A stretch of DNA of 36,614 nt, taken from the IMG/VR virus record IMGVR_UViG_3300042804_000010. The stretch is one strand, 5' to 3'. The translations under genes and the position numbers were made by a program. Positions 1 through 36,614 of this stretch are shown here, piece by piece. A model generated the notes under the pieces. It had not been told where the DNA came from. It did not search any database and saw only the letters and a program-made list of their open reading frames with translations. Within the stretch, counting starts at the first letter, position 1; every line of letters begins with the position of its first letter. The stretch comes from a virus.

Positions 1-127
1 ATATAACCTTGTTTAACCCACTGGTCATAAGGAATTTTATCTTCTCTGGAACGCTGCTCTAATAAATCTTCTGGCAGCCAATACATAGATAAACAATATA
101 TTGTCGGATCATCTGGAAGCATAAAAA
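1..127. repeat. 127-bp terminal direct repeat identical to 36488-36614 (circularisation overlap of the contig)
   Basis: Direct comparison: window start atataaccttgtttaacccactgg...tggaagcataaaaa reappears at the window end, and the terL reading frame is continuous across it. Confidence 0.9.
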
Positions 128-1403
128 GAACACTACTTGCAGTTAAATCAGTAGTGCTGGATAAGTCAGTTCCTCCGATGCCATAACGGGGATTTAGCTC
201 CCCAACATCAAAGTTTGCTGTATTATTCAATTCTTCAAAGTTTAACCATGCTTCAGAAGATGTTTCTCTGATATTAAAATCTTTAGTTAATAAGTTTTTA
301 ACTAATAAAGGATTATTTTGTGCTTTATGAACCTTAGTTTCTAAGTTGTCGGTTTTCTTAATAGTACCAAGCCCTGGATTAGCTTTTCTCCAGTTTTTTC
401 TGTCAGTCCATTCGGACCTTTTGTCTAACTCATAAATAATTGGTAAAAATCTTTCGTCTTTATAACCTTCTGGATCATCAAATCCATTAATAATCATTTC
501 TGCTTCATCATACTTTAGGTCGTAAACTTGCTCTCTAACAGTCCCAGCAGTTGTGATCATAAATATTAAAGGTTGTTCTCTTGCTGATGTACCGTCTTTG
601 ATAACATCGTAAAGGTTCTTGTCTTTCCATGCGTGTATCTCATCAAGAGAGGCTCCATGCACATTGAGCCCGTCTAATCTATCGCTGTCAGACCCGAGAG
701 GCACAAAAGTTGAATCATTATGTCGGCCCTTTAATTCTTTAACCAAAGGTTTAATGCTTTTCAGTAAGAATGGTGATTTTTTAACCATTTTCTTAGCTTC
801 TGACCATACTATTTTGGCCTGTTTTTCTTTTGTAGCAACCGCATATATTTCGGCCCCTGGTTCATTATCGGCAACTTGAAGATATAAAGAAATCGCCGAT
901 GAAAGAGTTGATTTTCCATTCTTTCTGGCAACGACTAATAATACTTCTCTATATTTTCTTGTTCTGTTAGTTTTATGAATAAACCCAAAAATAGCTGCTA
1001 TAAAAGCCTTCTGCCAGAGTTCTAATTTAAGCGCCTGGCCTCCCCATTTACCTTTTGATTGTTTGCAAAAATTTTCTATAAACTCAATTGCATGATTAGC
1101 GTGGCCGGCACTATACTCCCACTGGCTTTGATCGTCATGAACATCAGCTACAAGTTTTTTATAAACTTTTTTAACTTTTTTGCAGGCTATTATTTCGCCA
1201 GATTGAATTTTATTATTATATTCAATGATTGGATTATAACTCAAAGGATATCTTATATAATTACTGTTGTTTTTCTTAGTTTTTTCTTTTGTTTTTTTAG
1301 GGTGCTGCCAACATCTCCACTCATTTGGTGGATTATCATTAAATTCTTTTTCTCTGCTGCATCTGCTGCCATCGTTTTTAGTTCCTGAGCATCTAACTAT
1401 CAT
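1..1403 (-). CDS. terL: Terminase large subunit, N-terminal (5') portion; gene continues at 36061-36614 across the circular junction (about 609 aa in total)
   Basis: Manual minus-strand translation from ATG 1403..1401 (2 nt after terS stop) gives MIVRCSGTKNDGSRCS...IEYNNKIQSGEIIACKKV...VVARKNGKST (Walker A-like)...LDEIHAW and runs in frame into MLPDDPTIYCLSMYW, the start of the 36061..36609 track ORF. Absent from the ORF track because it has no stop inside the window. Confidence 0.85.
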   Translation of the reverse strand, partial: MIVRCSGTKNDGSRCSREKEFNDNPPNEWRCWQHPKKTKEKTKKNNSNYIRYPLSYNPIIEYNNKIQSGEIIACKKVKKVYKKLVADVHDDQSQWEYSAGHANHAIEFIENFCKQSKGKWGGQALKLELWQKAFIAAIFGFIHKTNRTRKYREVLLVVARKNGKSTLSSAISLYLQVADNEPGAEIYAVATKEKQAKIVWSEAKKMVKKSPFLLKSIKPLVKELKGRHNDSTFVPLGSDSDRLDGLNVHGASLDEIHAWKDKNLYDVIKDGTSAREQPLIFMITTAGTVREQVYDLKYDEAEMIINGFDDPEGYKDERFLPIIYELDKRSEWTDRKNWRKANPGLGTIKKTDNLETKVHKAQNNPLLVKNLLTKDFNIRETSSEAWLNFEELNNTANFDVGELNPRYGIGGTDLSSTTDLTASSVLFMLPDDPTIYCLSMYWLPEDLLEQRSREDKIPYDQWVKQGY

Positions 1404-1405
1404 CT

Positions 1406-1795
1406 TTAATCAGGCCTCGATGCTTCAAACTTTTCTATAATATTTTCGGGATTAGTAACTTCTTCTTTTGGCAACAAGTCAAGCAATTGCTTCATAACAG
1501 CATTATGTCTATTAACTAATGAAATATAGGTGCTTGCTTCTGGAGATTGTTTAGTACCCCATTGGTTTTCTCCATTCTGATACTTTGATACAACTCCATT
1601 AGCATTGATTTCATCCTGCAAGTCCTGGAGAGTTATGGCCATAAATGCTGCATTTGCAATTAATGACTTTGCTATATCCATTCTCTGGCTATCTATATCT
1701 AAATCTTCTAAAATTGCTCTTAATCTTTCTTTTTCTTCTTTAACTCGCCTATCTTTTTCTAAAAACTCGTTATTTTTAGCTGCTGTATTTGACAT
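1406..1795 (-). CDS. terS: Terminase small subunit (P27-family-like)
   Basis: Track ORF 1406..1870 starts at GTG with no RBS; ATG at 1795 is preceded by GAGGGGGGTG. Product MSNTAAKNNEFLEKDRR...NAVMKQLLDLLP resembles P27-type small terminase; sits immediately upstream of terL. Confidence 0.7.
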   Translation of the reverse strand: MSNTAAKNNEFLEKDRRVKEEKERLRAILEDLDIDSQRMDIAKSLIANAAFMAITLQDLQDEINANGVVSKYQNGENQWGTKQSPEASTYISLVNRHNAVMKQLLDLLPKEEVTNPENIIEKFEASRPD

Positions 1796-1890
1796 TTTAT
1801 ACCACACCCCCCTCGTGAGCTTGATATGTATTAATTGTGTATCCCCTCTCGGTCCCCTGGCAGCCACCACCCCGATAAAAACAGGGGGGG
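1796..1890. other. GC-rich island between HNH endonuclease and terS; candidate cos/packaging site
   Basis: C6 tract at 1807-1812 and G7 tract at 1884-1890, with cccctctcggtcccctggcagccaccacccc between, in an otherwise AT-rich genome; HNH-cos-terS is the usual arrangement in HK97-like cos phages. Confidence 0.4.
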
Positions 1891-2205
1891 CTACCTTTCA
1901 ACCAGCTCTCCATGCTTATTAAACTTCAAACCTTGTCTAACTACCTCCGCACTTGCTCCTACTCCATGTTCCTCGTTATGACAGTCTAAGCACAGGTATT
2001 CTAAGTTATCAAAGTTAAGAGTAATCTCTGGATCATTAATGTTGTCAGGAGTTAAGTATTCAATGTGATGAACTATTTTGCCTGGATTAACCTTGCCATT
2101 CTCCAAGCATCTTTCACACAATCCGTTTACTTCAGCAATATAAGCCTCTCTGCACTCCTGCCATTCTTTACTCTTATAAAAACTTTTAGCCCATTCCTTT
2201 GCCAT
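1891..2205 (-). CDS. HNH endonuclease (terminase-associated)
   Basis: 104-aa ORF with CERC...HHIEYL...N...LCLDCHNEEH, an HNH motif with zinc-binding Cys pairs; directly upstream of terS. Confidence 0.8.
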   Translation of the reverse strand: MAKEWAKSFYKSKEWQECREAYIAEVNGLCERCLENGKVNPGKIVHHIEYLTPDNINDPEITLNFDNLEYLCLDCHNEEHGVGASAEVVRQGLKFNKHGELVER

Positions 2206-8189: not shown

Positions 8190-8450
8190 CTATCTCGCCC
8201 CGCAGATTCCCGACTCGCAATCCGGATCTACTTCTCTATCAAATCCACCGTCGAGACCAACTTTATTTGCTTCCGTTTCAGACTCATTATTTGACTTTTC
8301 CCGGCTTTCTAATATTTTTTCTGGAACCATTTCTTTTTCGCCGCACTCCTGGCAAATTAGAATTTTGTAATCAGAATAACTTGTTAATTCAGTTTCTTTA
8401 ATTCGGTGATCAGTTTCTTTTCGACAACTTTTGCACTCTTTATTAATCAT
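8190..8450 (-). CDS. Small zinc-ribbon protein
   Basis: Track ORF 8190..8507; AGGAGG lies 6 nt upstream of internal ATG 8450; product MINKECKSCRKETDH...ICQECGEKE. Confidence 0.5.
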   Translation of the reverse strand: MINKECKSCRKETDHRIKETELTSYSDYKILICQECGEKEMVPEKILESREKSNNESETEANKVGLDGGFDREVDPDCESGICGAR

Positions 8451-11564: not shown

Positions 11565-12341
11565 TTATTTAAGATACTGAACATTATAATTTCCTCTCTC
11601 AGTCTCAACTCTTTCTGGCTTACCTTTGATAGTTAGCCAACCTCTGACCTTTTCCATTACTGATGGATAATACTGTTCTTGAGAGTATTGATGACTGCCA
11701 TTACTGCCCATTGTGGTCTCAATTTCGTTAGGTTTAAGGTCTAGATCATTAATTATTGCTCCGATTGCCTGATGATGCGGATTGCCAGAGTTACTATAAA
11801 CACCAATTCTTTTTGCTATATCGGTGCAAGTTAATAGATTATCTGGCAACTGCACATGAAAAGGTAGATTAATTCCAGCTTCTTCATATATACTTTTAAT
11901 CGCTGTCATTTTAGATGAAGCGCTTAATTGCAATTCTTCCATCAAGGGCATTAACATTTTTGTAGACTCTAAAGCGAATTGTTTGCCATCAACCGATTGA
12001 TTATTTTGAGCTATACCTCTTGCTCGCTTTTCCACTTCAATAAAGTATTTTCTTATTTTTCTACCTTGCCGATTTCTCTCAACCATTCCAAGTTCTTTCC
12101 CCATATCCAAACTTAAAACATATTCTTTAGGAGGCCTGCCACCTGAACTTTCCCCCAAAAATGTGGAAAAGTCTATTCCTTTTTCAAATCCATAATCAGA
12201 TACTCTTTGACTAATCCAAGTTGAAAAATCTCTTTCGACACCCAAATAGTCATGTAATTCTCTAGCATTCACAACTTTTTCGCCTTCATCGGTTAAATAA
12301 ACTGGAATTAATTTGTTTTCTAAGATTTTTAGAGCATTCAT
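11565..12341 (-). CDS. Phage antirepressor (AntA-domain)
   Basis: N-terminus ...VVNARELHDYLGVERDFSTWISQRVSDYGFEKGIDF matches the AntA-type antirepressor pattern; second gene of the leftward early operon after cro. Confidence 0.65.
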   Translation of the reverse strand: MNALKILENKLIPVYLTDEGEKVVNARELHDYLGVERDFSTWISQRVSDYGFEKGIDFSTFLGESSGGRPPKEYVLSLDMGKELGMVERNRQGRKIRKYFIEVEKRARGIAQNNQSVDGKQFALESTKMLMPLMEELQLSASSKMTAIKSIYEEAGINLPFHVQLPDNLLTCTDIAKRIGVYSNSGNPHHQAIGAIINDLDLKPNEIETTMGSNGSHQYSQEQYYPSVMEKVRGWLTIKGKPERVETERGNYNVQYLK

Positions 12342-12369: not shown

Positions 12370-12582
12370 TTAGCTGTACTCTATTTCTAAAAAAAGACGA
12401 CTGATCGGAATTTGCAACTCATCAGAAACTTTCCTGAGCGTTTCAATAGATGGGTTACTATCTCCTCTTTCTATCGCTGCTATAGTTGAATGTGCTAACC
12501 CTATCCGGCGTGCCAACTCTCGCTGGCTCCATTCTAAATCTTCTCTATATTTTTTTATAGCCAGCCCGATGTGTTTATCCAT
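12370..12582 (-). CDS. Cro-like XRE-family HTH regulator
   Basis: 70-aa ORF ...WSQRELARRIGLAHSTIAAIERGDSNPSIETLRKV...; divergent from the cI-like gene. Confidence 0.75.
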   Translation of the reverse strand: MDKHIGLAIKKYREDLEWSQRELARRIGLAHSTIAAIERGDSNPSIETLRKVSDELQIPISRLFLEIEYS

Positions 12583-12845: not shown

Positions 12846-13490
12846 ATGACATTAGGTGAAAAGATTAGAGAACTAAGGACAAAAAAGGGCTATTCTCTTC
12901 GAAAATTGTCGAAAATAGTTGGTTCTGCTTCTCACTCCTATATTGCCGCTATAGAACGTGGCGAAAATAACCCATCATTAAACATATTGTCAGATATCGC
13001 AAATGTTCTTGGAGTATCAACAGCTTATTTATTGGACATTTATGATAAAGAAAAGTCTGGAAATGAAAAGTTTAAGATTGATGAACATTCAGGGGAGATT
13101 TCAAAAGAGGAGATGATTAGTGTGCCGATTGTCGGAGATGTAGCAGCAGGTGAACCAATACTCGCAGACGAACATATAGAAGGATATAGACAAATGCCCG
13201 CAAAAGACATCAATGGGGAATGTTTTTTGCTCAAAATTAAAGGCGATAGCATGATCAATGCAGGGATTCATGAAAACGATTTGGTATTAATCAGACAGCA
13301 GGCAAAAGTTGAGACCGGAGATATTGCAGCTGTAATGATTGATAATGAAAATGCGACATTAAAAAGAGTTTATTTTCATGACAATTCAGTTTTGCTGCAG
13401 TCTGAAAACTTGAAATATAAGCCGATGAATATTAATAATGAAAGAGTTAAAATTATTGGTAAAGCAATAGAAGTTATTCACAAACTATAA
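12846..13490 (+). CDS. CI-like repressor (N-terminal XRE HTH plus C-terminal S24/LexA-like peptidase domain)
   Basis: N-terminus LRKLSKIVGSASHSYIAAIERGENNPSLNIL; C-terminus ...PIVGDVAAGEPILA...KGDSMINAGI...KRVY with Ser/Lys dyad spacing typical of autocleaving repressors. Confidence 0.8.
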   Translation: MTLGEKIRELRTKKGYSLRKLSKIVGSASHSYIAAIERGENNPSLNILSDIANVLGVSTAYLLDIYDKEKSGNEKFKIDEHSGEISKEEMISVPIVGDVAAGEPILADEHIEGYRQMPAKDINGECFLLKIKGDSMINAGIHENDLVLIRQQAKVETGDIAAVMIDNENATLKRVYFHDNSVLLQSENLKYKPMNINNERVKIIGKAIEVIHKL

Positions 13491-14476: not shown

Positions 14477-15622
14477 ATGCCTCATATTGAAAAAACTGCA
14501 AATGGAAAGTATAAAGCTGTCATTGAAGTTGGCGCCGGCGCCAGGCGAAAAAGAAGAACAAAAACATTCGAAAGAAAAAAAGATGCAAAAAGCTGGCAAG
14601 CTAATATGTTAGTTGATCAAGAAAAAGGCAGATATGTTTCTTCCGCATCATTAACTGTCGGTGATCATATGCTTGACTGGCTGGATAACGAGAAGAAACC
14701 GCACATCGCCACAACTACTTATGATAATTACAAAAACCGTATAAAAACTTATATTATACCCGAAATAGGATATATTCCATTGCAGGAACTGGAGCCCTTC
14801 CATATTAGCCGATTTATGGGCTATTTAAGAAAGAATGGAAGTGTCAGGAATGATGGCGGCCTGTCTGAAAATACTCTCAAGAAAATATATGTAGTGCTTA
14901 ATTCAGCGATGGAAAAGGCAGTCCAGTGGCGGTTAATAAAATATAACCCAGTCCAGGCGATTGAATCACCACAACCGAAAAAGAAAGAAGCTAAGTCAAT
15001 GAGCTTTGAGGAAGTTCAAAAATTACTTGATTCAGTTAACGATAAATTTATGCACACATTTTTGAGTTTTGCTGTCCTTACCGGAATGAGAAAAAGTGAA
15101 ATGCTTGGCCTAGAGTGGTCAGAAGTTGATTTAGAGAATGAAACTGTCGAAGTAAAAAAGCGATTAGTTGTTAATCAAAATAGTGATCAGGGAATTGAGC
15201 ATGAAGAAGCGACAAAGCGAGAAGCCAGCAGAAGAGTGATTGCGATTCCTTCGAAACTGGCAAAAATATTGAAAAATTATAAGGTCCATCAAACAGAATT
15301 AAGGCTGCAGCTGGCGGATGAATATAATGATGAAAAGCAATTTGTTTTCTGTAAGTCTGACGGGAATCCTTATTATCCGTCAACAATTACTAGAAATGCA
15401 AAAAAGGCCATACTCAGAGCTGATTTAAGCTCCGAATACAGCCTTCATACATTGCGCCATACATTCGCTACCTTGCAACTTAAAACCGGGACAGATGCCA
15501 AAACTATACAAGAAATGCTCGGTCATGGGAATATCTCCACTACTATGGATATATACTCTCATGTTGATATTGACATGCAGAAAGAAGCCGCAAAGAAATT
15601 AGAAAATGAGATTGTTATTTAG
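14477..15622 (+). CDS. int: Tyrosine integrase (site-specific recombinase)
   Basis: C-terminal catalytic pattern ...HTLRHTFATLQL...LGHGNISTTMDIYSHV (R...HxxR...Y) and N-terminal SAM-like domain. Confidence 0.85.
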   Translation: MPHIEKTANGKYKAVIEVGAGARRKRRTKTFERKKDAKSWQANMLVDQEKGRYVSSASLTVGDHMLDWLDNEKKPHIATTTYDNYKNRIKTYIIPEIGYIPLQELEPFHISRFMGYLRKNGSVRNDGGLSENTLKKIYVVLNSAMEKAVQWRLIKYNPVQAIESPQPKKKEAKSMSFEEVQKLLDSVNDKFMHTFLSFAVLTGMRKSEMLGLEWSEVDLENETVEVKKRLVVNQNSDQGIEHEEATKREASRRVIAIPSKLAKILKNYKVHQTELRLQLADEYNDEKQFVFCKSDGNPYYPSTITRNAKKAILRADLSSEYSLHTLRHTFATLQLKTGTDAKTIQEMLGHGNISTTMDIYSHVDIDMQKEAAKKLENEIVI

Positions 15623-16721: not shown

Positions 16722-16746
16722 CAGCTAGATTTTCCTTTTCTAAAAC

Positions 16747-16769
16747 TTTTCGGCACTAGCTCGGCACTT
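16747..16769. repeat. Direct repeat copy 1 (ttttcggcactagctcggcactt) flanking the tRNA-like core
   Basis: Shares TTTT-GGCAC-n4-TCGGCACTT with 17018-17040; contains two CGGCACT units 11 bp apart. Confidence 0.5.
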
Positions 16770-16788
16770 TAGCCGGGCTTTTATTTTT
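16760..16788 (+). terminator. Candidate terminator for the plus-strand cassette
   Basis: ctcggc-acttta-gccggg stem (one G-U pair) followed by cttttattttt. Confidence 0.35.
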
Positions 16789-16789
16789 G

Positions 16790-16825
16790 CAAATAAAAAA
16801 AGGACAACCACGAAGGCTGTCCTGT
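16790..16825 (-). terminator. Rho-independent terminator (minus strand) downstream of the tRNA-like fragment
   Basis: Hairpin aggacaacc/ggctgtcct (9-bp stem, one mismatch, 5-nt loop) at 16801-16823, followed on the minus strand by tttttttattt. Confidence 0.6.
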
Positions 16826-16837
16826 TAGTATTCTTAA

Positions 16838-16887
16838 TGGTGCGCCCGACAGGATTCGAACCTGTGGCCTACGGATTAGAAGTCCGT
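16838..16887 (-). other. 3' half of a tRNA-Arg(UCU)-like sequence (anticodon arm, variable loop, T-arm, acceptor 3' strand, CCA); candidate attP core
   Basis: Minus-strand read ACGGA-CTTCTAA-TCCGT AGGCC ACAGG-TTCGAAT-CCTGT CGGGCGC A CCA; the upstream 5' part has only weak acceptor complementarity (GCGCAAG) and no D-arm, so it is not a complete tRNA. Confidence 0.6.
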
Positions 16888-16939
16888 AAGAGGTGAAATC
16901 TTGCGCTTTCTTATGTTTTCTTTTGTTGCGACATTTAGT

Positions 16940-16968
16940 AGTATATCAACACTTTTTGGAGTTGTCAA
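16940..16968 (-). promoter_or_regulatory. Near-consensus promoter on minus strand (TTGACA-17-TATACT) directed into the tRNA-like fragment
   Basis: Plus-strand tgtcaa at 16963-16968 and agtata at 16940-16945 are reverse complements of the -35 and -10 boxes with a 17-bp spacer. Confidence 0.45.
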
Positions 16969-17017
16969 GACTTTTTGAAAAAATATTTATTCTGATGTTT
17001 TCTTAAATTTTGGCACG

Positions 17018-17040
17018 AACTCGGCACTTCCTACATTATA
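17018..17040. repeat. Direct repeat copy 2 (ttttggcacgaactcggcacttc)
   Basis: About 19 of 22 positions identical to copy 1, with an exact TCGGCACTT 9-mer; the two copies bracket the promoter, tRNA fragment and terminator. Confidence 0.5.
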
Positions 17041-17187
17041 TATAGTGATTAATTGTGCTTGTTATATTCTTTAGCAGCATCAATCAGCTTTTGCTCAAAG
17101 TCTAACTTTTTCTTACCGAGCAATTCTCTACTGGTACGCGGCCTGTATTCAGCTTTTAGATTTTCTCCAAACTCATCATAATCGAAT

Positions 17188-18237: not shown

Positions 18238-19332
18238 CTATATGCTTTTTAATTTTAGCCGGTCGCCTAAATCCAATTGCTCCAGTATATGATCATCTAG
18301 TTTGTTTATCACTGACATTTTTAAATTATAACTATCGCAATGTTTAATTATTCCCAAGTAGGAATTAACACTGGCATTAATATCCTCGATATCCACCTTC
18401 CCTTCAAAATATTTTTTATTAAGATATTTAAATCGCTTTTTCATTTTCTTTTTAGTACTTTTCCTCAATTTGCTATAACTCGGATATAGAACATATCCGC
18501 AAAAATCTATTCCTTCATTCACATGTCCAACAGTAGTTTTATTATTAAGCTGCAGCTGGAGATAATCTTCTAAAAATATTTCTATTTCCTGTCTGATTGT
18601 ATGAAGCTTCTTTTTATCTTTTCCCAAAAGTACAAAGTCATCCATATACCGGACATAGTATTTTACTTTCAAGGTGTGCTTTACAAACTTATCTAAAAAA
18701 TCAAGATAAATATTTGCAAAAAGCTGGCTCATTAAGTTGCCGATTGGTGTGCCAATCCCTTTAACTTTTTTATTTTCAAAGAAGTGATCACCTAACTGGA
18801 TACCAAACTCACCATCTTCACTTTTGATTATCTGCCAGATTAATTCCAATGTATCTCTGCAGCTAATTTTCCTTTTTATTAACTGAAATAATCTTTTATG
18901 AACTATCCTGTAAAAATATTTTGAAACGTCTGCTTTTAAAAAATATGTTTTTCCGGGCTTTCGGTCCATTATCCTTAACTTGTCCTGTAATTGATATGCA
19001 GTGAAATGAGTACCCTTTCCTCTGCGACAAGCCCCGCTATATCTGTAAAATGCCTTATCAAATATCGGGTAAAGCTTTCGATATATGCTCCACTGGACCA
19101 CTCTGTCTTTAAAAGGCAAAGCCATGATCAGTCTTTTCTTTGGCTCATAGACATAAAACTGCCTGTATTTTCCCTGTTCATATGTTTTCCACATTAATTC
19201 ATTCTGTATCTCAATTAAATTTCTCTCTAAATTATAATTAAATTTCAGCACTTCCGGTTTGTATCTTTTCCTCTTTTGAGCTTTTTGAGTTGCTATTTCT
19301 AAATTATGATAATCAGTAATTTTCTCAAACAA
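18238..19332 (-). CDS. Diversity-generating retroelement reverse transcriptase
   Basis: RT motifs FYVYEPKKRLIMALPFKDRVVQ, GTHFTAY, IGTPIGNLMSQLFANIYL (DGR-type SQ in place of the usual QGxxxSP), YVRYMDDFVLLG (YxDD); about 360 aa, as for Bordetella phage Brt; apparent TTG start at 19332. Confidence 0.9.
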   Translation of the reverse strand: MFEKITDYHNLEIATQKAQKRKRYKPEVLKFNYNLERNLIEIQNELMWKTYEQGKYRQFYVYEPKKRLIMALPFKDRVVQWSIYRKLYPIFDKAFYRYSGACRRGKGTHFTAYQLQDKLRIMDRKPGKTYFLKADVSKYFYRIVHKRLFQLIKRKISCRDTLELIWQIIKSEDGEFGIQLGDHFFENKKVKGIGTPIGNLMSQLFANIYLDFLDKFVKHTLKVKYYVRYMDDFVLLGKDKKKLHTIRQEIEIFLEDYLQLQLNNKTTVGHVNEGIDFCGYVLYPSYSKLRKSTKKKMKKRFKYLNKKYFEGKVDIEDINASVNSYLGIIKHCDSYNLKMSVINKLDDHILEQLDLGDRLKLKSI

Positions 19333-19586
19333 ATTTTTGACTGTCTTAGGAATAAATAATCACCACTCTCTATATATTAGGTGAAATATTCAAGCCCGCT
19401 CAAATGAGAACGGGCTCATAACTAATCGTGACAGCTTTCGATATTTCGCTACTTGCTATCTAATTAGTAATTCATATGTTTTCCTGGAGGGACCTCAAAA
19501 TGTATCTCAGGAAGGACTAAAGGCCTGTTCATCTTTTTGAACACTGCAGCAGAGGCCTTGACCCCATACTGTCTGATAAATTTGTA

Positions 19587-19703
19587 GATGAGCACAGGCG
19601 CCACGCACGCCAATGTTAGTGTTCACGTTCCACGGGTTATTGTTCGAGTTGACCGTCCGAGCACCGCAGATGCTACCATTGTTGAAGTTGCCACCGGCGA
19701 GGA
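19587..19703 (-). repeat. DGR template repeat (TR), 117 bp
   Basis: 102 of 117 positions identical to VR (20143-20259); all 15 differences are at TR adenines on the coding strand; carries 11 AAY codons in the VR frame. Confidence 0.9.
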
Positions 19704-19727
19704 CCAACGCCCTTAGCCCTATAAAAT

Positions 19728-20081
19728 TTATTTTTTATTTTCACAAGACTTAATCCAGCCACCCAGAAGGCGGCCAATTTCGTCTATTTTTTTGACTACA
19801 ATTTCATGTTTTCTTATAGATAAAAAATGCATATCTTTAGCAAGTCTAATTTTAACTTTTAGCTTTTTAAGTTCATCATCTATCCGGTTTAAAAATCTTA
19901 TCTTACTTCCTCGAGCTTCATTTGCATCTATTATCAATTCCATAATTCTATCTAATTTATTTTTGATTTTTGTACACATTGCAAACTTTTCTCTTTTTGG
20001 AAAATTATCAATTACTGGGTAAAAATAAAGAGTAAAGTCATAATGTTTTCTAAATATCACGAGATCATCTGTGTCTGCCAA
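19728..20081 (-). CDS. avd: DGR accessory variability determinant (Avd)
   Basis: 117-aa basic helical protein located between the target gene and TR, as in canonical DGRs; TTG start preceded by AAGGAG with a 7-nt spacer. Confidence 0.75.
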   Translation of the reverse strand: MADTDDLVIFRKHYDFTLYFYPVIDNFPKREKFAMCTKIKNKLDRIMELIIDANEARGSKIRFLNRIDDELKKLKVKIRLAKDMHFLSIRKHEIVVKKIDEIGRLLGGWIKSCENKK

Positions 20082-20131
20082 ATCATCACTCCTTCAAGTT
20101 CTAAACCTAACCAAAAACCATTATCAGATTA

Positions 20132-21169
20132 TCAGGCACTCTGATGAGCACAGGCGCCACGCACGCCAACGCTAGTGTTCACGTCCCACGGGCGAAAGTC
20201 CGAGCTGACCGTCCGAGCACCGCAGAGGCCACCACTGCTGAAGCCGCCACCGGCGAGGAGGCCAATAATAGCCACATTATTTTGCATGTAAGCTTCACCA
20301 TGCTGATAACCGCTGTCTTTACCTGCATTAAGCACATCATACCAACTGAATGAAGTTGAGCCAGTATTTCTATAAGTATACTCGTCTAATCTTTCCCAAA
20401 GGTTACCAGCGCAATCTACAAGGTTATAGCAAGAAACTGCTTGTTCTACAGTTCCAGTTGAAGTTCGACCTGAATTACTTGAACTAGACCAAGCGGCATT
20501 ATTATCATTTTCGTGGCCTTCTGGGCTACCATAGGCAGCCATTAACCATTCCTGCCTGGTTAATTTTCTTTTGTTGACATTTGCAAGACCCCTAATGAAA
20601 TCATAATCATTATAACCCTCAGTTCCTGAGACCGGGGTCGCATTGTATTCACTCACAAGTTCAGTTTCCGGCCAGGTTCCGCTGCCTTCACTTGCAATAT
20701 ATATATCAGCCCAAAAGTTTGATACCTTGACCATTCCAGTAGGGTCACAGGCAGGTCTGTAGTTCAATGACCAGACTGAGTTTGGCAGTATATTAACTGC
20801 AATTGAGGCTGTATCATCATATCTTTGAGCGTTTGTTCTGATGCGGCCATAATGAAAACCACCAATTTTTCTGCTATTATTTTCTGTATACCCGTCTGGA
20901 TAAGTAGAGTTGATAGAAATAACAAAATCGGGCTCTGCATCAGCTGATGGCTGCAAAGCATATATATAATAGTTTTCGCCAAGCGTGAAACTTACAAAAC
21001 TGCCGTCGCTATCAGCTTCAGTCAAAATAGTATCAGTTTCTTTTTTGAGATTCTGTCTATCAATTCTCAAAGCTAATGGAGGTACTGTAACTTCATCAGC
21101 TGCACTCTTTTCAATATGGCCTTTGAAATTGTAGAATGAAGGTGAATCAGCTCCAACAAAAGTTAACAT
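20132..21169 (-). CDS. DGR target protein: distal tail/receptor-binding protein with C-terminal C-type-lectin/FGE-like fold carrying the VR
   Basis: C-terminal ...SCYNLVDCAGNLWERLDEY...LLAGGGFSSGGLCGARTVSSDFRPWDVNTSVGVRGACAHQSA; VR occupies the last about 39 codons; last gene of the tail module. Confidence 0.85.
   Translation of the reverse strand: MLTFVGADSPSFYNFKGHIEKSAADEVTVPPLALRIDRQNLKKETDTILTEADSDGSFVSFTLGENYYIYALQPSADAEPDFVISINSTYPDGYTENNSRKIGGFHYGRIRTNAQRYDDTASIAVNILPNSVWSLNYRPACDPTGMVKVSNFWADIYIASEGSGTWPETELVSEYNATPVSGTEGYNDYDFIRGLANVNKRKLTRQEWLMAAYGSPEGHENDNNAAWSSSSNSGRTSTGTVEQAVSCYNLVDCAGNLWERLDEYTYRNTGSTSFSWYDVLNAGKDSGYQHGEAYMQNNVAIIGLLAGGGFSSGGLCGARTVSSDFRPWDVNTSVGVRGACAHQSA
20143..20259 (-). 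repeat. DGR variable repeat (VR), 117 bp, at the 3' end of the target gene
   Basis: Aligns to TR 19587-19703; the coding-strand 3' end is a GC-rich invariant segment ggcgtgcgtggcgcctgtgctcatc (IMH-like). Confidence 0.9.
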
Positions 21170-30109: not shown

Positions 30110-31009
30110 CTACACATCAGTAGTTGAAGGAACTGAATCAAAGAAGTTGGCATAACCAGGGTCATTTTCGAATATTTCTCCCATGACTCTGCGTGCTGAT
30201 TCTTCAACAAACATTGTCAAGTTAAGAGTTTCTGTATCAAATGTAACTGAGTCTTCATTAGTATTATTATCTTTTGAAGGTCTAGAAGCTTTAGTTCTCC
30301 AAAAAACAAATCTCATATCTTCTTCATTTCCGTTTATTTGAGCCATTAAAGCAAATTCTTTTGGCTCATCATCTGCGGATTCAACAATCATTCCATTGGA
30401 GAAAACTGTTTTTCCGAGCATTTCAGCTTGAATTTCTCTAGGGATGAAACCAGCTTCAATAGAGCCTGTGTATCCATTGTTAGTTTCTTCTTCGAGTTGT
30501 TTAGTGTCATCTCCAAATAATTCAGCTGTGTCACCTTCTGGATCTGCTGCAAAGTTAATAACCCCTGGGATTTGTTTCACTTTACCATATCCAGTTGTTC
30601 CAGCAGTGACAGCTGCAGAACTCCCCATTGTAGCTCCGGTTGTTCCCGTGTCAGTGAATGCAATTTCTAAAGTAGAATCATTTTCTTGCACTACTTTAGT
30701 TTTAAGGTATATAACACCTTTATCGTTTCTAGCATCAAAAACTGGACTAATGATATCATCATTGTTTAAAACATTGACAATTGCAGATGCAACTTTGCTC
30801 ACTGTAGTATGAGTTTCACTTGCTAACGGAACTACTACAGAATGAGGAGAATCTGCTCCAAGCAAAGTCCCTGCTGTAACTTGAATCTCTATTTCTCCAT
30901 CTGTAGAAGGTGCCGCGGTAACTTCAATTTTTTCAGCCTGCGCTTCTCCTTTAAAAGCTATGTGGAGATTTCTTAATCCCCATGTACCTTTATTTGACAT
31001 AAATTTCAC
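30110..31009 (-). CDS. Major tail protein
   Basis: 299 aa, Thr/Gly-rich beta protein immediately upstream of the chaperone and tape measure genes. Confidence 0.7.
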   Translation of the reverse strand: MKFMSNKGTWGLRNLHIAFKGEAQAEKIEVTAAPSTDGEIEIQVTAGTLLGADSPHSVVVPLASETHTTVSKVASAIVNVLNNDDIISPVFDARNDKGVIYLKTKVVQENDSTLEIAFTDTGTTGATMGSSAAVTAGTTGYGKVKQIPGVINFAADPEGDTAELFGDDTKQLEEETNNGYTGSIEAGFIPREIQAEMLGKTVFSNGMIVESADDEPKEFALMAQINGNEEDMRFVFWRTKASRPSKDNNTNEDSVTFDTETLNLTMFVEESARRVMGEIFENDPGYANFFDSVPSTTDV

Positions 31010-31013
31010 TCCT

Positions 31014-31325
31014 TTATATTATTGATATTTCATAAACTGTCTGATACAAATCTTCATCGTCTAAAAATTCTTGTGATTTCTGATAAGCAATCCCTAAACT
31101 TTTAAATAAATTTTCGATTTCTTTTTCAACTGGCGGATTCCACTTTTTTGTATATAGTTCAACATTAAAATATTCAACTCCAACATAATTAATATTATCC
31201 GCCATAAAATCATTGTTATACCGATAAACAATTAGAATAAATGGAGGAGATTGAGGTTCTTTAAACTTTCGATAAGCTGTTGGGTATAAAGTTTTGAGTT
31301 CAGCCAGTAATTCTTGATAAATCAT
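31014..31325 (-). CDS. Putative tail terminator/neck protein
   Basis: 103-aa ORF between the gp10-like gene and the major tail gene; role inferred from synteny. Confidence 0.4.
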   Translation of the reverse strand: MIYQELLAELKTLYPTAYRKFKEPQSPPFILIVYRYNNDFMADNINYVGVEYFNVELYTKKWNPPVEKEIENLFKSLGIAYQKSQEFLDDEDLYQTVYEISII

Positions 31326-33132: not shown

Positions 33133-34275
33133 TTATCCTTTTTTGACTCTTAAGAAACCATTTTTAGCTGTAACATTACCGCCAGAAAATACTACTCCTC
33201 TATGAGCAATCATACCTTCTTTAAATTTATAATCTGTGGAACGCTTAACTTCCATTTCAGAGAAAATAGCCATTGTGTAATTACTTAATGGACCATAAGC
33301 CATGGAATACTGTCCAGCTGTTACAGCACCATCGGAAATAGCATTACAAGCGCTATTAATAACATATGGAACTCCATCAATTGTTCCAGTATTGCCATTA
33401 TGAACTACATCGTAAACTTTTGTACCATCAGTATGTCTTAATGTAGCAAATTCTTTTAAATCTAATTTATTTAAAATTAATACAGCTTGATCTTCTACAT
33501 CTTCATCTCCACCAAAGCTATAAATAATTTCATCAAGAGTATTTTCGTCGATAGAAGCCATCGATTTATCAGTTGCTCCATCAATAGCAGTTGCTCCATC
33601 ATCAAAAATTCCTACAAAATGACCAGTAGTTCCATTACCAATAAGAATTTCTTTAGTAATTTTCTTTCTAGTCGCAGTAGAAATTCCTTTCATTACTTCT
33701 GCATCATAATCAGCTGCAGGTAACTTTTGAAGTTCTTCTGTATCTTCAGCATAAGCTGTAATTTTAGTTTTATTAATTGTAGCATAATTAAAAGAAGGCT
33801 CAGCATCAGTAGGCAATCCTTCTTCATCAGTGTATCCGCCTTCGCCATAACCAACTAGATAAGGCTGTTCATAGCTTTCTCCGCCCATTAAAGGCTTAAT
33901 GTTAACTCTATCAATTAAGCTTGAAACTTCATTAAAAGTCGGCTTAATATCGGTAGCTTTATGTTCTGGCAATAGAACATTAGAAGTGCTGACTGTAACA
34001 GATCTTTTTTCCATTAAGTCCTTGCCTCTTTTTTCAGCTTTATCAACTTCTGGAGGCTCTTCTTTGCCTTCTGCAATAAATCTGCCTTCAATTTCACCAT
34101 CTTTAATTTTTTTTGCTATTTTTTGGCGCTTTTCTTTCTCAATTAAGTCCGCTTTTTCATCCTGAAGCTCTCTCACTTCTTTTTCTAAAGCATCAATATC
34201 AACATTTTCATCTTCAGCAGTTAACTTTTCCCTAATCTCTGCTAATCTTTTTTCAATTTCTTTTAATCTATCCAT
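33133..34275 (-). CDS. Major capsid protein (HK97 fold)
   Basis: 380 aa; N-terminal coiled-coil delta-like region followed by a capsid domain; follows the prohead protease gene. Confidence 0.85.
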   Translation of the reverse strand: MDRLKEIEKRLAEIREKLTAEDENVDIDALEKEVRELQDEKADLIEKEKRQKIAKKIKDGEIEGRFIAEGKEEPPEVDKAEKRGKDLMEKRSVTVSTSNVLLPEHKATDIKPTFNEVSSLIDRVNIKPLMGGESYEQPYLVGYGEGGYTDEEGLPTDAEPSFNYATINKTKITAYAEDTEELQKLPAADYDAEVMKGISTATRKKITKEILIGNGTTGHFVGIFDDGATAIDGATDKSMASIDENTLDEIIYSFGGDEDVEDQAVLILNKLDLKEFATLRHTDGTKVYDVVHNGNTGTIDGVPYVINSACNAISDGAVTAGQYSMAYGPLSNYTMAIFSEMEVKRSTDYKFKEGMIAHRGVVFSGGNVTAKNGFLRVKKG

Positions 34276-34290
34276 TATTTAATCATCTCC

Positions 34291-34890
34291 TTAAATTTTT
34301 GTTAGTAACTTAACTTTTCTTTTTTTCCTTTTCAACTTTTCTTTTTCTTTTTCAAGCTTTTCGAATGATCTAGCCGCAACTGATGTTGAATCATAGGCCG
34401 GAATGTCAACAGCTGATACATCATAAAGCCTTTTAACTTTTCTGACTGTCCTCAGATGTTCATCGGTATCATAACTATCTTCTTGAACAGAAAAAGCAAA
34501 AGACATCTTATCAATATATCCGCCTTTTATTTCTTCATAAAGTTTTCTGCCTTCTTCGGTGCCATCTAATTTAGCTTTGACATAAAGCCCATCTTCTTTG
34601 ACATTGAGTTCCAAAGTATCATTGCGAGTTCTAGCAACTACTTTGCCGCCATGGTTATAATTAAAGATTACATCTTCCATTTCGGCATCTTCAAAAGCTC
34701 TGGAGTCAATTTGCTCTTTGTAATCAATACCATTAAAGGAATAGAGAACTGTCGGATCGTCAAAAGAGCAGGCTTTCCCTTCAACAAACAATTCTTCATT
34801 TTCTTCATCAGCTCTGATTTCAAAACTAGCAAAATTGCGATAATCTCTATTTTGTTTAAGTTTCTCCTTCATCTTCTTCGGTATCGTCAT
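34291..34890 (-). CDS. Prohead protease (HK97 family)
   Basis: 199 aa, position between portal and major capsid genes; basic C-terminal tail; start may be an internal Met (overlaps the portal 3' end). Confidence 0.75.
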   Translation of the reverse strand: MTIPKKMKEKLKQNRDYRNFASFEIRADEENEELFVEGKACSFDDPTVLYSFNGIDYKEQIDSRAFEDAEMEDVIFNYNHGGKVVARTRNDTLELNVKEDGLYVKAKLDGTEEGRKLYEEIKGGYIDKMSFAFSVQEDSYDTDEHLRTVRKVKRLYDVSAVDIPAYDSTSVAARSFEKLEKEKEKLKRKKRKVKLLTKI

Positions 34891-36049
34891 CTACAAATTC
34901 ACCCCCTTCTACTGGTGCTGTATCTAATCGTCTAACTGGTTCGTCTCCGCCTTTGATTGGCCCTAAGTTCATAACACGCCTCCATTCATTCGGAGTTAAT
35001 GCTCCGCGGTCAACCATATTTAGTAAGTTAAGTTTTGTTTTCATCGAAGCATACTGTAAATTGGAAGCTTCAAAAATAATCTCGTTCCCGTAACCTCTTT
35101 CCCGTCTAGTAAAAAATATTTTTGTGAAAGCATTAGACAACTGAATTGCTATTGGTTCAATTTCAGATTCATAAAAGGAATTCCATTCATCTTCATCGTA
35201 GTTATTCATTACAATGTTTTCATTTACACCAAAATAAGCATATAGCCGCTTAATCGAACGGTCCATTTGAGCTGCGTTAGGAACATAGTCATTTGGCTCA
35301 ACTTGTTCTGCATCATAAGAAGGATCTGTGGCTGCAGCACCAACTTCATTTTCAACAGATAAATAGTTGTTAACAAACTCTTCAAGCTCGACTTTTTTAT
35401 CTTCTGGCCTAATCTTTGATTTGAACTTTAATAGCCAGCGAATAACTGCTCCATTTTTAATTGCATTTATGACTGAGTTATCTGTATTAGTTATTACATC
35501 CATTAAATTTTGCAAAGCTTGATAATGGCCATCTCCAAAAATGTCATTCTCATTAAAATCTTTTCTTAAATGAATAACATCTTCATAAGGCACAACTACA
35601 TACTTTCCAATTTGAAACCATAGCTTTAAATACATTTCATTTTGATGTTCAACTAATTGGACCTGGCTTGCTGGGATCGGATATAATGCCTCAACTCTTT
35701 GTTGATCGTCTCTATCTACATAAGCAAAAGCATTATGATTTAACTCTCTTTGAATAACCATTTTAGAGAGAAAATCCTGCATGCTCATATAAGGATTAGG
35801 ATTCTGCAAAACTTCTCTTATCTTTGGCCTGTCATTAACTTTTATATTTTCGCCACTTCCCTCAATGTGTTTTGGATTAAGTTTTCCTATTGCATCTGAT
35901 TTTGGCCTTATACAAGCCCTTACTATATCGTTCTGCCAAACATCACCAGACCAGGGAGAAAAATAATTATTAGATGAACTGATTAACTTAAAAGCTTGAG
36001 TGGTTTTATTAGTTTTCCCGCCTCCGAATATCTTGTCAAATAACCCCAA
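34856..36049 (-). CDS. Portal protein (HK97 family)
   Basis: 397 aa immediately downstream of terL; acidic C-terminus DDDTEEDEGET. Confidence 0.85.
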   Translation of the reverse strand: MGLFDKIFGGGKTNKTTQAFKLISSSNNYFSPWSGDVWQNDIVRACIRPKSDAIGKLNPKHIEGSGENIKVNDRPKIREVLQNPNPYMSMQDFLSKMVIQRELNHNAFAYVDRDDQQRVEALYPIPASQVQLVEHQNEMYLKLWFQIGKYVVVPYEDVIHLRKDFNENDIFGDGHYQALQNLMDVITNTDNSVINAIKNGAVIRWLLKFKSKIRPEDKKVELEEFVNNYLSVENEVGAAATDPSYDAEQVEPNDYVPNAAQMDRSIKRLYAYFGVNENIVMNNYDEDEWNSFYESEIEPIAIQLSNAFTKIFFTRRERGYGNEIIFEASNLQYASMKTKLNLLNMVDRGALTPNEWRRVMNLGPIKGGDEPVRRLDTAPVEGGEFVDDDTEEDEGET

Positions 36050-36060
36050 ATAATCACCTC

Positions 36061-36614
36061 CTAAATCATGTTTTCATACTCTTGCATTTTGTCTTGGAGT
36101 ATCACATAAGCATTAAGCATTGCAGCTGTACCATCAATTCTTTTTCTTTGATTACGCTGCTTTGCGGGTTGTATATTAAGATTTTTATCTATATCAACTG
36201 AGGTATTACTCAAACACCATTTAGTTATTGGATTGTTGTCATAATTAATTTTATGAGCTTTTAAATCAGCCCCCAGTTGTTTCATTGGTCCTGATAATGT
36301 TTTTTTACCCTGGATAACTGGAATCATTGCTTCTTTACCAAAATGACCTTGCATTTCCTCAACCCAGTAATTAGCACTCCAGGAGTCATAACCAATCCAG
36401 GGAATATAAATATCTAATTCATTTTGGACCTCTAAATACCACCGAGTAACAAATTTCGGATGCACTTTGTTGCCTGGAGTGGTTCTCATATAACCTTGTT
36501 TAACCCACTGGTCATAAGGAATTTTATCTTCTCTGGAACGCTGCTCTAATAAATCTTCTGGCAGCCAATACATAGATAAACAATATATTGTCGGATCATC
36601 TGGAAGCATAAAAA
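36061..36614 (-). CDS. terL: Terminase large subunit, C-terminal (nuclease) portion; 5' part is at 1-1403
   Basis: Track ORF 36061..36609 is in frame with the manually translated ORF ending at window position 1; 36488-36614 duplicates 1-127. Confidence 0.85.
   Translation of the reverse strand, partial: FMLPDDPTIYCLSMYWLPEDLLEQRSREDKIPYDQWVKQGYMRTTPGNKVHPKFVTRWYLEVQNELDIYIPWIGYDSWSANYWVEEMQGHFGKEAMIPVIQGKKTLSGPMKQLGADLKAHKINYDNNPITKWCLSNTSVDIDKNLNIQPAKQRNQRKRIDGTAAMLNAYVILQDKMQEYENMI

What the first reader, a model, noticed from the sequence alone, without database searches (positions are those of the whole stretch)
1..127. Window is a circular contig: 127-bp end duplication and terL split across the junction
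Positions 1-127 equal 36488-36614 exactly, and the terminase large-subunit reading frame is continuous across the junction (about 609 aa in total). The unit genome is therefore about 36,487 bp; the repeat is more likely an assembly overlap than a biological terminal repeat.
Basis: seen in the sequence. Interest (0 to 1): 0.5.

Follow-up and report, generated by a model that had tools for sequence, protein, structure and literature searches.

The report
Assembler overlap on a circular phage contig
The 127-base duplication at the two ends of this window is a routine by-product of short-read assembly of a complete 36,487-bp phage genome, not a biological repeat. The phage's real DNA ends are predicted about 1.8 kb away, at a cohesive-end site.

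Summary
Window 1-127 equals 36488-36614 exactly. Joining the ends restores one 609-aa terminase large subunit (TerL) on the minus strand.

The decisive evidence comes from two other public assemblies. Both hold the identical 36,487-bp genome with 0 mismatches. Each is cut at a different place and carries a different end overlap: 141 bp in an ENA contig named k141_9111, and 123 bp in a JGI contig. The overlap length therefore follows the assembler's largest k-mer, and the genome unit stays the same. More than ten further contigs, including one from a Halanaerobium saccharolyticum isolate, read straight through the junction. Every locus compared directly with the 127-mer holds it only once.

The biological ends are predicted elsewhere. 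The 14-nt 3' cohesive-end overhang reported for Bacillus phage B13, GGACCGAGAGGGGA, occurs exactly once in the window. It lies at 1842-1855 (-), between the HNH endonuclease gene and the small terminase gene (terS), which is the HK97-type arrangement.

The finding is correct and useful for bookkeeping (trim 127 bp and rotate the contig to cos), but it is biologically ordinary.

Seen in passing:
- a textbook diversity-generating retroelement
- a tRNA-Arg-like candidate attP
- a Cys-rich N-terminal extension on TerL

The parts
1..127 (.). First copy of the 127-bp contig-end overlap (an assembly artefact). It lies inside terL and encodes aa 426-468.
   Evidence: Exact identity with 36488-36614. 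Position within the protein. A single copy is present in every related locus compared.
36488..36614 (.). Second, redundant copy of the 127-bp overlap. Trim it to obtain the 36,487-bp unit genome.
1..1403 (-). terL, 5' part (codons 1-467 plus 2 nt): N-terminal Cys-rich extension, ATPase domain and the start of the nuclease domain.
   Evidence: ORF reconstruction, Pfam, PDB hit to HK97 TerL 6Z6D at E=6.7e-42.
36061..36487 (-). terL, 3' part (to the stop codon at 36061-36063). It continues directly from position 1 on the circle.
   Evidence: TerL of 609 aa is called intact in the interior of other contigs.
1406..1795 (-). terS, small terminase, 129 aa from the ATG at 1795. The mechanical GTG start at 1870 would overlap the cos site.
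   Evidence: Weak Pfam Terminase_4 hit. The gene is called as 129 aa in most related contigs and as 154 aa in some. Its position relative to cos matches B13.
1842..1855 (-). Predicted cosN, a 14-nt 3' cohesive-end overhang GGACCGAGAGGGGA. These are the predicted physical ends of the virion DNA.
   Evidence: One exact match in the window, 0 expected by chance. Identical to the B13 overhang annotated in OP066531 and supported by PhageTerm plus restriction analysis (PMC9610010). Conserved at the same position in relatives.
1796..1890 (-). G+C-rich cos region between HNH and terS, with a C-run upstream and a G-run downstream of the overhang.
   Evidence: Sequence. Conserved in related loci even where the upstream gene differs.
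1891..2205 (-). HNH endonuclease next to cos and terS, an HK97 gp74-type packaging accessory.
   Evidence: Pfam HNH at 3.4e-08. Role of gp74 in cos cleavage: PMC9410871.
34856..36049 (-). Portal protein, immediately downstream of terL across the junction.
   Evidence: Pfam Phage_portal at 1.3e-54.
33133..34890 (-). S78 prohead protease (34291-34890) and HK97-fold major capsid protein (33133-34275).
   Evidence: Pfam.

Best explanation
The window is a complete, circularly closed assembly of a 36,487-bp temperate siphovirus genome. The host is probably Halanaerobium. A de Bruijn-graph assembler opened the cycle at an arbitrary point, which happened to fall inside terL. It left a duplicate of its largest k-mer (127 nt) at both contig ends. 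The duplication does not exist in the biological molecule.

The phage most likely packages unit-length DNA by the HK97-type 3'-cos route. In that route terS, TerL and the adjacent HNH endonuclease cut concatemers at a cos site between HNH and terS. Here the predicted site is 1842-1855 (-), leaving 14-nt 3' overhangs that re-anneal after injection.

Shown:
- the exact duplication and the continuity of terL
- the same unit with different overlaps and break points in other assemblies
- the presence and positional conservation of the B13 overhang sequence

Inferred:
- which assembler and which k were used for this window
- that cutting actually occurs at 1842-1855
For: 1. The end overlap is exact and maximal at 127 nt.
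2. Circularising the window restores one 609-aa TerL. It aligns without gaps across aa 426-475 to homologues of 74-99% identity.
3. ENA ERZ27245717 k141_9111 (36,628 bp) has an exact 141-bp end overlap. JGI 3300007158 Ga0079286_100032 (36,610 bp) has an exact 123-bp end overlap. Both units are 36,487 bp and match the window unit with 0 mismatches. Both are reverse-complemented and rotated, with overlaps mapping to window 8207-8347 and 30963-31085.
4. These values are the largest k of standard settings: MEGAHIT k-list ending in 141, MEGAHIT 23..123, and metaSPAdes 33..127 (PMC10914622; PMC6646334). CheckV describes this same artefact (PMC8116208).
5. Other contigs cross the junction. Each of the seven loci compared with the 127-mer holds it once. 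Examples are IMG/VR 3300013018_000012 at 99.97% over 3 kb, Logan SRR5467095_3286 at 100% over 20 kb, Logan SRR31968057 at 98-100% around the junction, and a Halanaerobium saccharolyticum MA284_T2 contig.
6. The cos evidence is as follows. The gene order is HNH, terS, terL, portal, S78 protease, HK97 capsid. The only PDB relative of TerL is HK97 TerL 6Z6D. The exact B13 overhang occurs once, in the HNH-terS spacer, and is conserved in position across relatives.
Against: - No reads are available, so pairs spanning the junction and even coverage could not be checked.
- The assembler used for this window is not recorded. k=127 is inferred from the repeat length.
- The other two full-length assemblies may come from the same study or the same samples. 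They are independent computations but not necessarily independent biology.
- The cos site is predicted by sequence identity to a phage whose TerL is about 74% identical. The termini of this phage have not been mapped.
Confidence: 0.96

Rival explanations
1. The 127-bp repeat is a genuine direct terminal repeat of the virion DNA, as in T7, T5 or N4-type packaging, so the linear genome really is 36,614 bp.
For: Only the bare fact that the contig ends repeat. Some phages do have short exact terminal repeats of 100-300 bp (established knowledge).
Against: - The repeat lies inside the essential terL gene and would split it.
- Two assemblies of the identical genome end elsewhere, with overlaps of 141 and 123 bp.
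- Other contigs cross the site, and every locus compared with the 127-mer holds one copy.
- TerL is HK97-like, sits next to an HNH gene, and a cos overhang sequence lies 1.8 kb away.
Confidence: 0.01
2. The overlap is an assembly artefact, but the phage packages by headful (pac) cutting. Virion DNA would then be circularly permuted and terminally redundant, with no fixed cos ends.
For: A circular contig with a k-mer overlap is expected equally for pac and cos phages (CheckV text). Termini were not mapped here.
Against: - The only solved relative of TerL is the cos terminase of HK97.
- B13, whose TerL is about 74% identical at the protein level, uses 3'-cos according to PhageTerm and restriction analysis.
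- An HNH gene sits next to terS.
- The exact 14-nt B13 overhang lies in the conserved spacer.
Confidence: 0.03
3. The circle is false. The assembler closed an incomplete or chimeric genome through a 127-nt sequence that really occurs twice, so the unit is not a complete genome.
For: De Bruijn assemblers can close false cycles through repeats (general knowledge).
Against: - The 127-mer occurs once in every related locus compared.
- terL is restored in frame and is 99-100% identical to intact genes elsewhere.
- Three assemblers give the same 36,487-bp unit.
- The gene content is a full temperate siphovirus set, and the size is close to relatives of 36.9-37.4 kb.
Confidence: 0.005

Closest known systems
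k-mer-length 'direct terminal repeat' left by de Bruijn assemblers on circular templates (CheckV Extended Data Fig. 3; COBRA 'self_circular' contigs)
   Same: The end duplication is exact and its length equals a standard largest k (127). The break point is arbitrary. The same genome carries overlaps of 141 and 123 bp in other assemblies.
   Different: Nothing differs. This is a textbook instance. The only particular detail is that the break fell inside terL.
Bacillus phage B13 (OP066531, proposed genus Bunatrivirus), a 3'-cos temperate siphovirus
   Same: The TerL genes match at 71% nt over 92% of the gene. TerLs from the Bacillus cereus group match at 73-75% aa. The order terS, terL, portal, protease, capsid is the same, an HNH gene lies upstream of cos, and the 14-nt overhang sequence is identical. 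Genome size is similar at 36.9 kb.
   Different: The host class differs (Bacillus versus probably Halanaerobium). B13 has an extra ORF between HNH and cos. B13 TerL lacks the roughly 50-aa Cys-rich N-terminal extension. Outside the overhang the flanks are conserved only in short G/C runs.
Escherichia phage HK97 packaging module (TerL 6Z6D, gp74 HNH, 3'-cos)
   Same: TerL is homologous (E=6.7e-42, aa 103-592). An HNH endonuclease is encoded next to cos and terS. The S78 protease and HK97-fold capsid are present.
   Different: The sequence relationship is distant. The cos sequence is unrelated to that of HK97 as far as was tested here. Cleavage was not tested.

Membership tests
Assembler k-mer overlap on a circular contig (artefact) | The two contig ends are exactly identical in direct orientation | tested here: met
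   1-127 equals 36488-36614 at 100%, and 127 is the maximal overlap.
Assembler k-mer overlap on a circular contig (artefact) | The overlap length equals the assembler's largest k and changes with the assembler | tested here: met
   The same 36,487-bp unit carries 127 bp (window), 141 bp (contig named k141_9111) and 123 bp (JGI contig). Standard k lists end in 127, 141 and 123. The assembler used for the window itself is inferred, not recorded.
Assembler k-mer overlap on a circular contig (artefact) | The break position is arbitrary, and the sequence is single-copy and continuous in other assemblies | tested here: met
   The other overlaps map to window 8207-8347 and 30963-31085. Contigs cross the junction at 98-100% identity, and all seven loci compared hold one copy of the 127-mer.
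Assembler k-mer overlap on a circular contig (artefact) | Read pairs span the join and coverage is even over the repeat | not testable with these tools
   No reads are available.
Biological direct terminal repeat (T7/T5/N4-type ends) | The repeat marks fixed physical ends, so independent assemblies end there and carry it twice | tested here: not met
   Other assemblies end elsewhere, and the loci compared carry one copy.
Biological direct terminal repeat (T7/T5/N4-type ends) | The ends do not interrupt an essential gene | tested here: not met
   The repeat encodes TerL aa 426-468, within the nuclease-domain match.
HK97-type 3'-cos packaging | TerL belongs to the HK97-like terminase lineage | tested here: met
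   Pfam TerL_ATPase and TerL_nuclease. The sole PDB hit is 6Z6D, HK97 TerL, at E=6.7e-42. No phylogeny was built here. The B13 paper places its TerL with HK97, HK022 and 16-3.
HK97-type 3'-cos packaging | An HNH endonuclease is encoded next to cos and terS | tested here: met
   The ORF at 1891-2205 (-) matches Pfam HNH at 3.4e-08 and lies directly upstream of the spacer and terS.
HK97-type 3'-cos packaging | A defined cos site gives fixed 3' overhangs | tested here: inconclusive
   The exact B13 overhang 14-mer occurs once, at 1842-1855 (-), with 0 expected by chance. It is conserved in position in relatives. Physical termini cannot be tested here.
Headful (pac) packaging | A pac-type TerL, with no fixed cos site and no HNH partner | tested here: not met
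   The TerL is HK97-like, an HNH gene is present and a cos-like site is present. The physical proof, permuted ends, is not testable.

The most novel reading that the evidence does not exclude
The most novel reading the evidence allows does not concern the repeat. The predicted cos overhang GGACCGAGAGGGGA is identical, base for base, between a Bacillus cereus phage and this probable Halanaerobium phage. The two hosts belong to different classes of Bacillota. The overhang also recurs, in the same position, in prophages of Kurthia and of other Bacillus species. This would indicate a cosN and terminase recognition module that is unusually conserved across distant hosts. If so, virion ends could be predicted directly from metagenomic contigs of this lineage. 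The lineage-specific Cys-rich N-terminal extension of TerL might take part in this recognition. That the 127-bp repeat itself is biological has a probability below 0.02.
Probability: 0.6. Interest if true: 0.25.

Novelty: not a real feature. Interest (0 to 1): 0.07.

Why it matters
The value is practical. The redundant 127 bp should be trimmed so that the genome length (36,487 bp), the gene count and the terL call are correct. Left in place, terL is reported as two fragments or as a 182-aa stub. The contig can then be treated as a complete genome and rotated to start at the predicted cos site (1842-1855). The case is also a clean demonstration that repeat length tracks the assembler's k, because one genome carries 123, 127 and 141 bp in three assemblies. 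It raises no new biological question.

Tried and rejected
- A search of IMG/VR for the window found six related contigs but not the 36,614-bp contig itself, so its name and assembler could not be read.
- The reconstructed TerL was not submitted to the look-up of encoding contigs, because it is not encoded contiguously in the linear window. Its 99% homologue P0001 and other window proteins were used instead.
- ARAGORN found no tRNA in the window. Rfam did find a degenerate tRNA at 16841-16906.
- Attempts to find the integrated form, with host flanks at the tRNA-like site, failed. A metagenome-contig scan gave 0 hits. A viral-contig scan returned only attP-form contigs or contigs that end near the site.
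Whether that contig is a free phage contig or a prophage with host flanks is unknown.
- I checked whether identity to a relative changes abruptly at the junction, which would suggest a chimeric closure. It does not. Identity stays at 98-100% from about 1,228 nt on one side to about 470 nt on the other.

Full report
**Observation.** The first 127 bases of the window are identical to the last 127, and no longer exact end overlap exists. The non-redundant unit is therefore 36,487 bp. The only other long repeat in the window is a 117-nt pair at 87% identity near 19.6-20.3 kb. It is unrelated to the ends.

On the circularised sequence a single minus-strand ORF runs from 1403 down to 1 and continues from 36487 down to 36061. 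It is exactly 609 codons. It carries the Pfam TerL_ATPase (7e-32) and TerL_nuclease (5.5e-37) domains. The duplicated segment encodes residues 426-468. The 182-aa ORF that a linear scan lists at 36061-36609 is the C-terminal part of this gene, read from internal Met428.

**Is the join real?** The reconstructed TerL finds full-length homologues at 74-99% identity. A ten-sequence alignment has no gaps and is highly conserved across residues 420-480, the stretch that spans the join.

At the DNA level, contigs from other assemblies read straight through the junction:
- IMG/VR UViG 3300013018_000012 matches 3 kb centred on the join at 99.97%.
- Logan contig SRR5467095_3286 matches at 100% over 20 kb, from window 16871 through the join to 32479.
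- Logan SRR31968057_12627 stays at 98-100% identity in 100-nt windows on both sides of the join, so there is no chimeric break.
- A contig of the isolate Halanaerobium saccharolyticum MA284_T2 encodes a TerL that is 100% identical and crosses the join in one alignment.

Each of the seven loci compared directly with the 127-mer holds it once. A 609-aa TerL is called intact in the interior of a dozen contigs.

**Decisive test of artefact versus biology.** Two other public contigs could be rebuilt in full from overlapping fetched pieces, with no conflicts between pieces:
- ENA ERZ27245717 k141_9111 is 36,628 bp and has an exact end overlap of 141 bp.
- JGI 3300007158 Ga0079286_100032 is 36,610 bp and has an exact end overlap of 123 bp.

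Both give a unit of 36,487 bp. After rotation and reverse complementation, each unit matches the window's unit with 0 mismatches over its full length. Their overlaps map to window 8207-8347 and 30963-31085. One genome therefore carries terminal repeats of 123, 127 or 141 bp at three unrelated positions, depending only on the assembly.

These numbers are the largest k of common settings:
- MEGAHIT k-lists ending in 141. The contig name k141_ agrees with this.
- MEGAHIT 23,43,63,83,103,123.
- metaSPAdes 33,55,77,99,127 (PMC10914622; PMC6646334).

CheckV's authors describe the phenomenon directly. [quoted passage not shown] That the window itself was assembled with k=127 is my inference from the repeat length. 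No assembler record was available.

**Where the real ends probably are.** The genes around the join follow the classical HK97-type order, all on the minus strand:
- HNH endonuclease (1891-2205)
- a 95-nt G+C-rich spacer
- terS (1406-1795)
- terL
- portal (34856-36049)
- S78 prohead protease (34291-34890)
- HK97-fold capsid protein (33133-34275)

The only solved structure related to this TerL is 6Z6D, the HK97 large terminase (E=6.7e-42). In HK97 the HNH protein gp74 promotes cleavage at cos (PMC9410871).

The closest cultured relative in the phage collection is Bacillus phage B13, whose terL matches at 71% nt. TerLs from the Bacillus cereus group are 73-75% identical at the protein level. The B13 record annotates a 14-nt 3'-cos overhang at its first bases, 61 nt upstream of terS. 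The B13 paper derived the overhang 5'-GGACCGAGAGGGGA-3' with PhageTerm. It supported cos packaging with a restriction fragment formed by annealed ends (PMC9610010).

That exact 14-mer occurs once in the window, at 1842-1855 on the minus strand, in the HNH-terS spacer. None is expected in shuffled sequence, even allowing one mismatch. The 14-mer and its flanks are conserved in all close relatives, including those in which the gene upstream of the spacer differs. The 14-mer, or variants with 1-2 mismatches, sits at the same distance upstream of terL in prophages of:
- Halanaerobium, Kurthia, several Bacillus species, Halalkalibacter and Fredinandcohnia
- an Izemoplasmatales metagenome-assembled genome

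I therefore predict that virion DNA is a unit-length linear molecule with 14-nt 3' cohesive ends at this site, about 1.8 kb from the contig break. This is a prediction from sequence identity and synteny. The termini were not mapped.

**What the circular contig means.** The circular map is solid. Whether a circular molecule was sequenced is not shown. For a temperate cos phage, reads across cos can come from prophage, concatemers or re-circularised DNA. Reads across attP can come from virions or replicative forms. A mixture of these would also close the graph.

The phage is temperate:
- S24/LexA-like repressor (12846-13490, +)
- Cro-like HTH protein (12370-12582, -)
- AntA antirepressor (11565-12341, -)
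- tyrosine integrase (14477-15622, +)

**Rivals.**
- *A genuine direct terminal repeat* is excluded in practice. It would split an essential gene. It is absent as a second copy elsewhere. It does not recur at the same place or length in other assemblies.
- *A false cycle closed through a dispersed repeat* is excluded by the single-copy status of the 127-mer, the in-frame restoration of terL and the agreement of three assemblers.
- *Headful packaging* would give the same artefact. It cannot be excluded physically, but it is disfavoured by the TerL lineage, the HNH partner and the conserved overhang sequence.

**Verdict.** The finding is correct, and its interpretation is supported with near certainty. 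It is an ordinary assembly artefact. The practical consequences are to trim 127 bp, annotate terL as one 609-aa gene and rotate the genome to the predicted cos site. Interest is low.

**Limits.**
- No reads were available.
- The three full-length assemblies may stem from related samples of one study. They show that the result does not depend on the assembler. They are not independent biological replicates.
- Host assignment rests on one isolate contig, and its ends could not be retrieved.

Noticed in passing
window 18238-21169 (-): There is a complete diversity-generating retroelement. Its parts are an Mtd-like target gene at 20132-21169 (Pfam mtd_2nd), with the variable repeat at 20143-20259 at its 3' end. 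An Avd-type ORF follows at 19728-20081 (bAvd in related contigs), then the template repeat at 19587-19703. The reverse transcriptase is at 18238-19332 (RVT_1). The two repeats differ at 15 of 117 positions, and all 15 are adenines in the template repeat.
   Followed up: partly
window 16841-16906 (-), in the 466-nt gene-free stretch 16722-17187: There is a degenerate tRNA-like element (Rfam tRNA, 32.5 bits against a gathering score of 29). By my reading of the aligned anticodon loop (CUUCUAA), the anticodon is UCU (Arg). The anticodon arm, T arm and 3' acceptor are intact, but the 5' part is defective and ARAGORN does not call it. It is a likely attP core matching the 3' part of a host tRNA-Arg gene. 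Logan contigs of SRR5467095 end at window 16858-16871, and three IMG/VR contigs end 9-23 nt before 16845. These breaks are consistent with a branch in the assembly graph there. No contig with host flanks was found.
   Followed up: partly
window 1254-1403 (-), TerL aa 1-50: TerL carries a roughly 50-aa N-terminal extension with a Cys-rich motif (C5, C15, C31 and H34, as in RCSG...RCSRE...RCWQH). The closest homologues share it, including prophages of Sporohalobacter salinus and Orenia metallireducens. The Bacillus TerLs lack it. It may be a zinc ribbon, and its function is unknown.
   Followed up: no
window 1890-1900, compared with L005, L010, L106 and L107: In the near-identical relatives L106 and L107, gene calls show an extra 76-aa ORF between HNH and the cos spacer that the window lacks. 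L005 and L010 likewise have a different coding sequence ending just upstream of the spacer. Similarity to the window resumes exactly at the spacer, so cos appears to be a boundary between mosaic modules. Identity to L001 also falls from 99-100% in terL to 56-90% in the portal gene.
   Followed up: partly
window 1796-1890 (-), and related loci: The predicted cos overhang is flanked by a run of 6-7 C about 30 nt upstream. About 30 nt downstream there is a G-run (GGGGGGTGTGG) or, in some relatives, a C-run. These short G/C blocks are conserved from Halanaerobium to Bacillus prophages, while the sequence between them varies. They may be terminase or HNH recognition elements.
   Followed up: no
L010 (NZ_SNWX01000032.1, Halanaerobium saccharolyticum MA284_T2, 37,047 bp): An isolate genome assembly contains a contig of about phage-genome size that encodes a TerL 100% identical to the window's. 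Its DNA is 94-99% identical around the junction. This suggests the host, and it may be a free or induced phage contig.
   Followed up: partly
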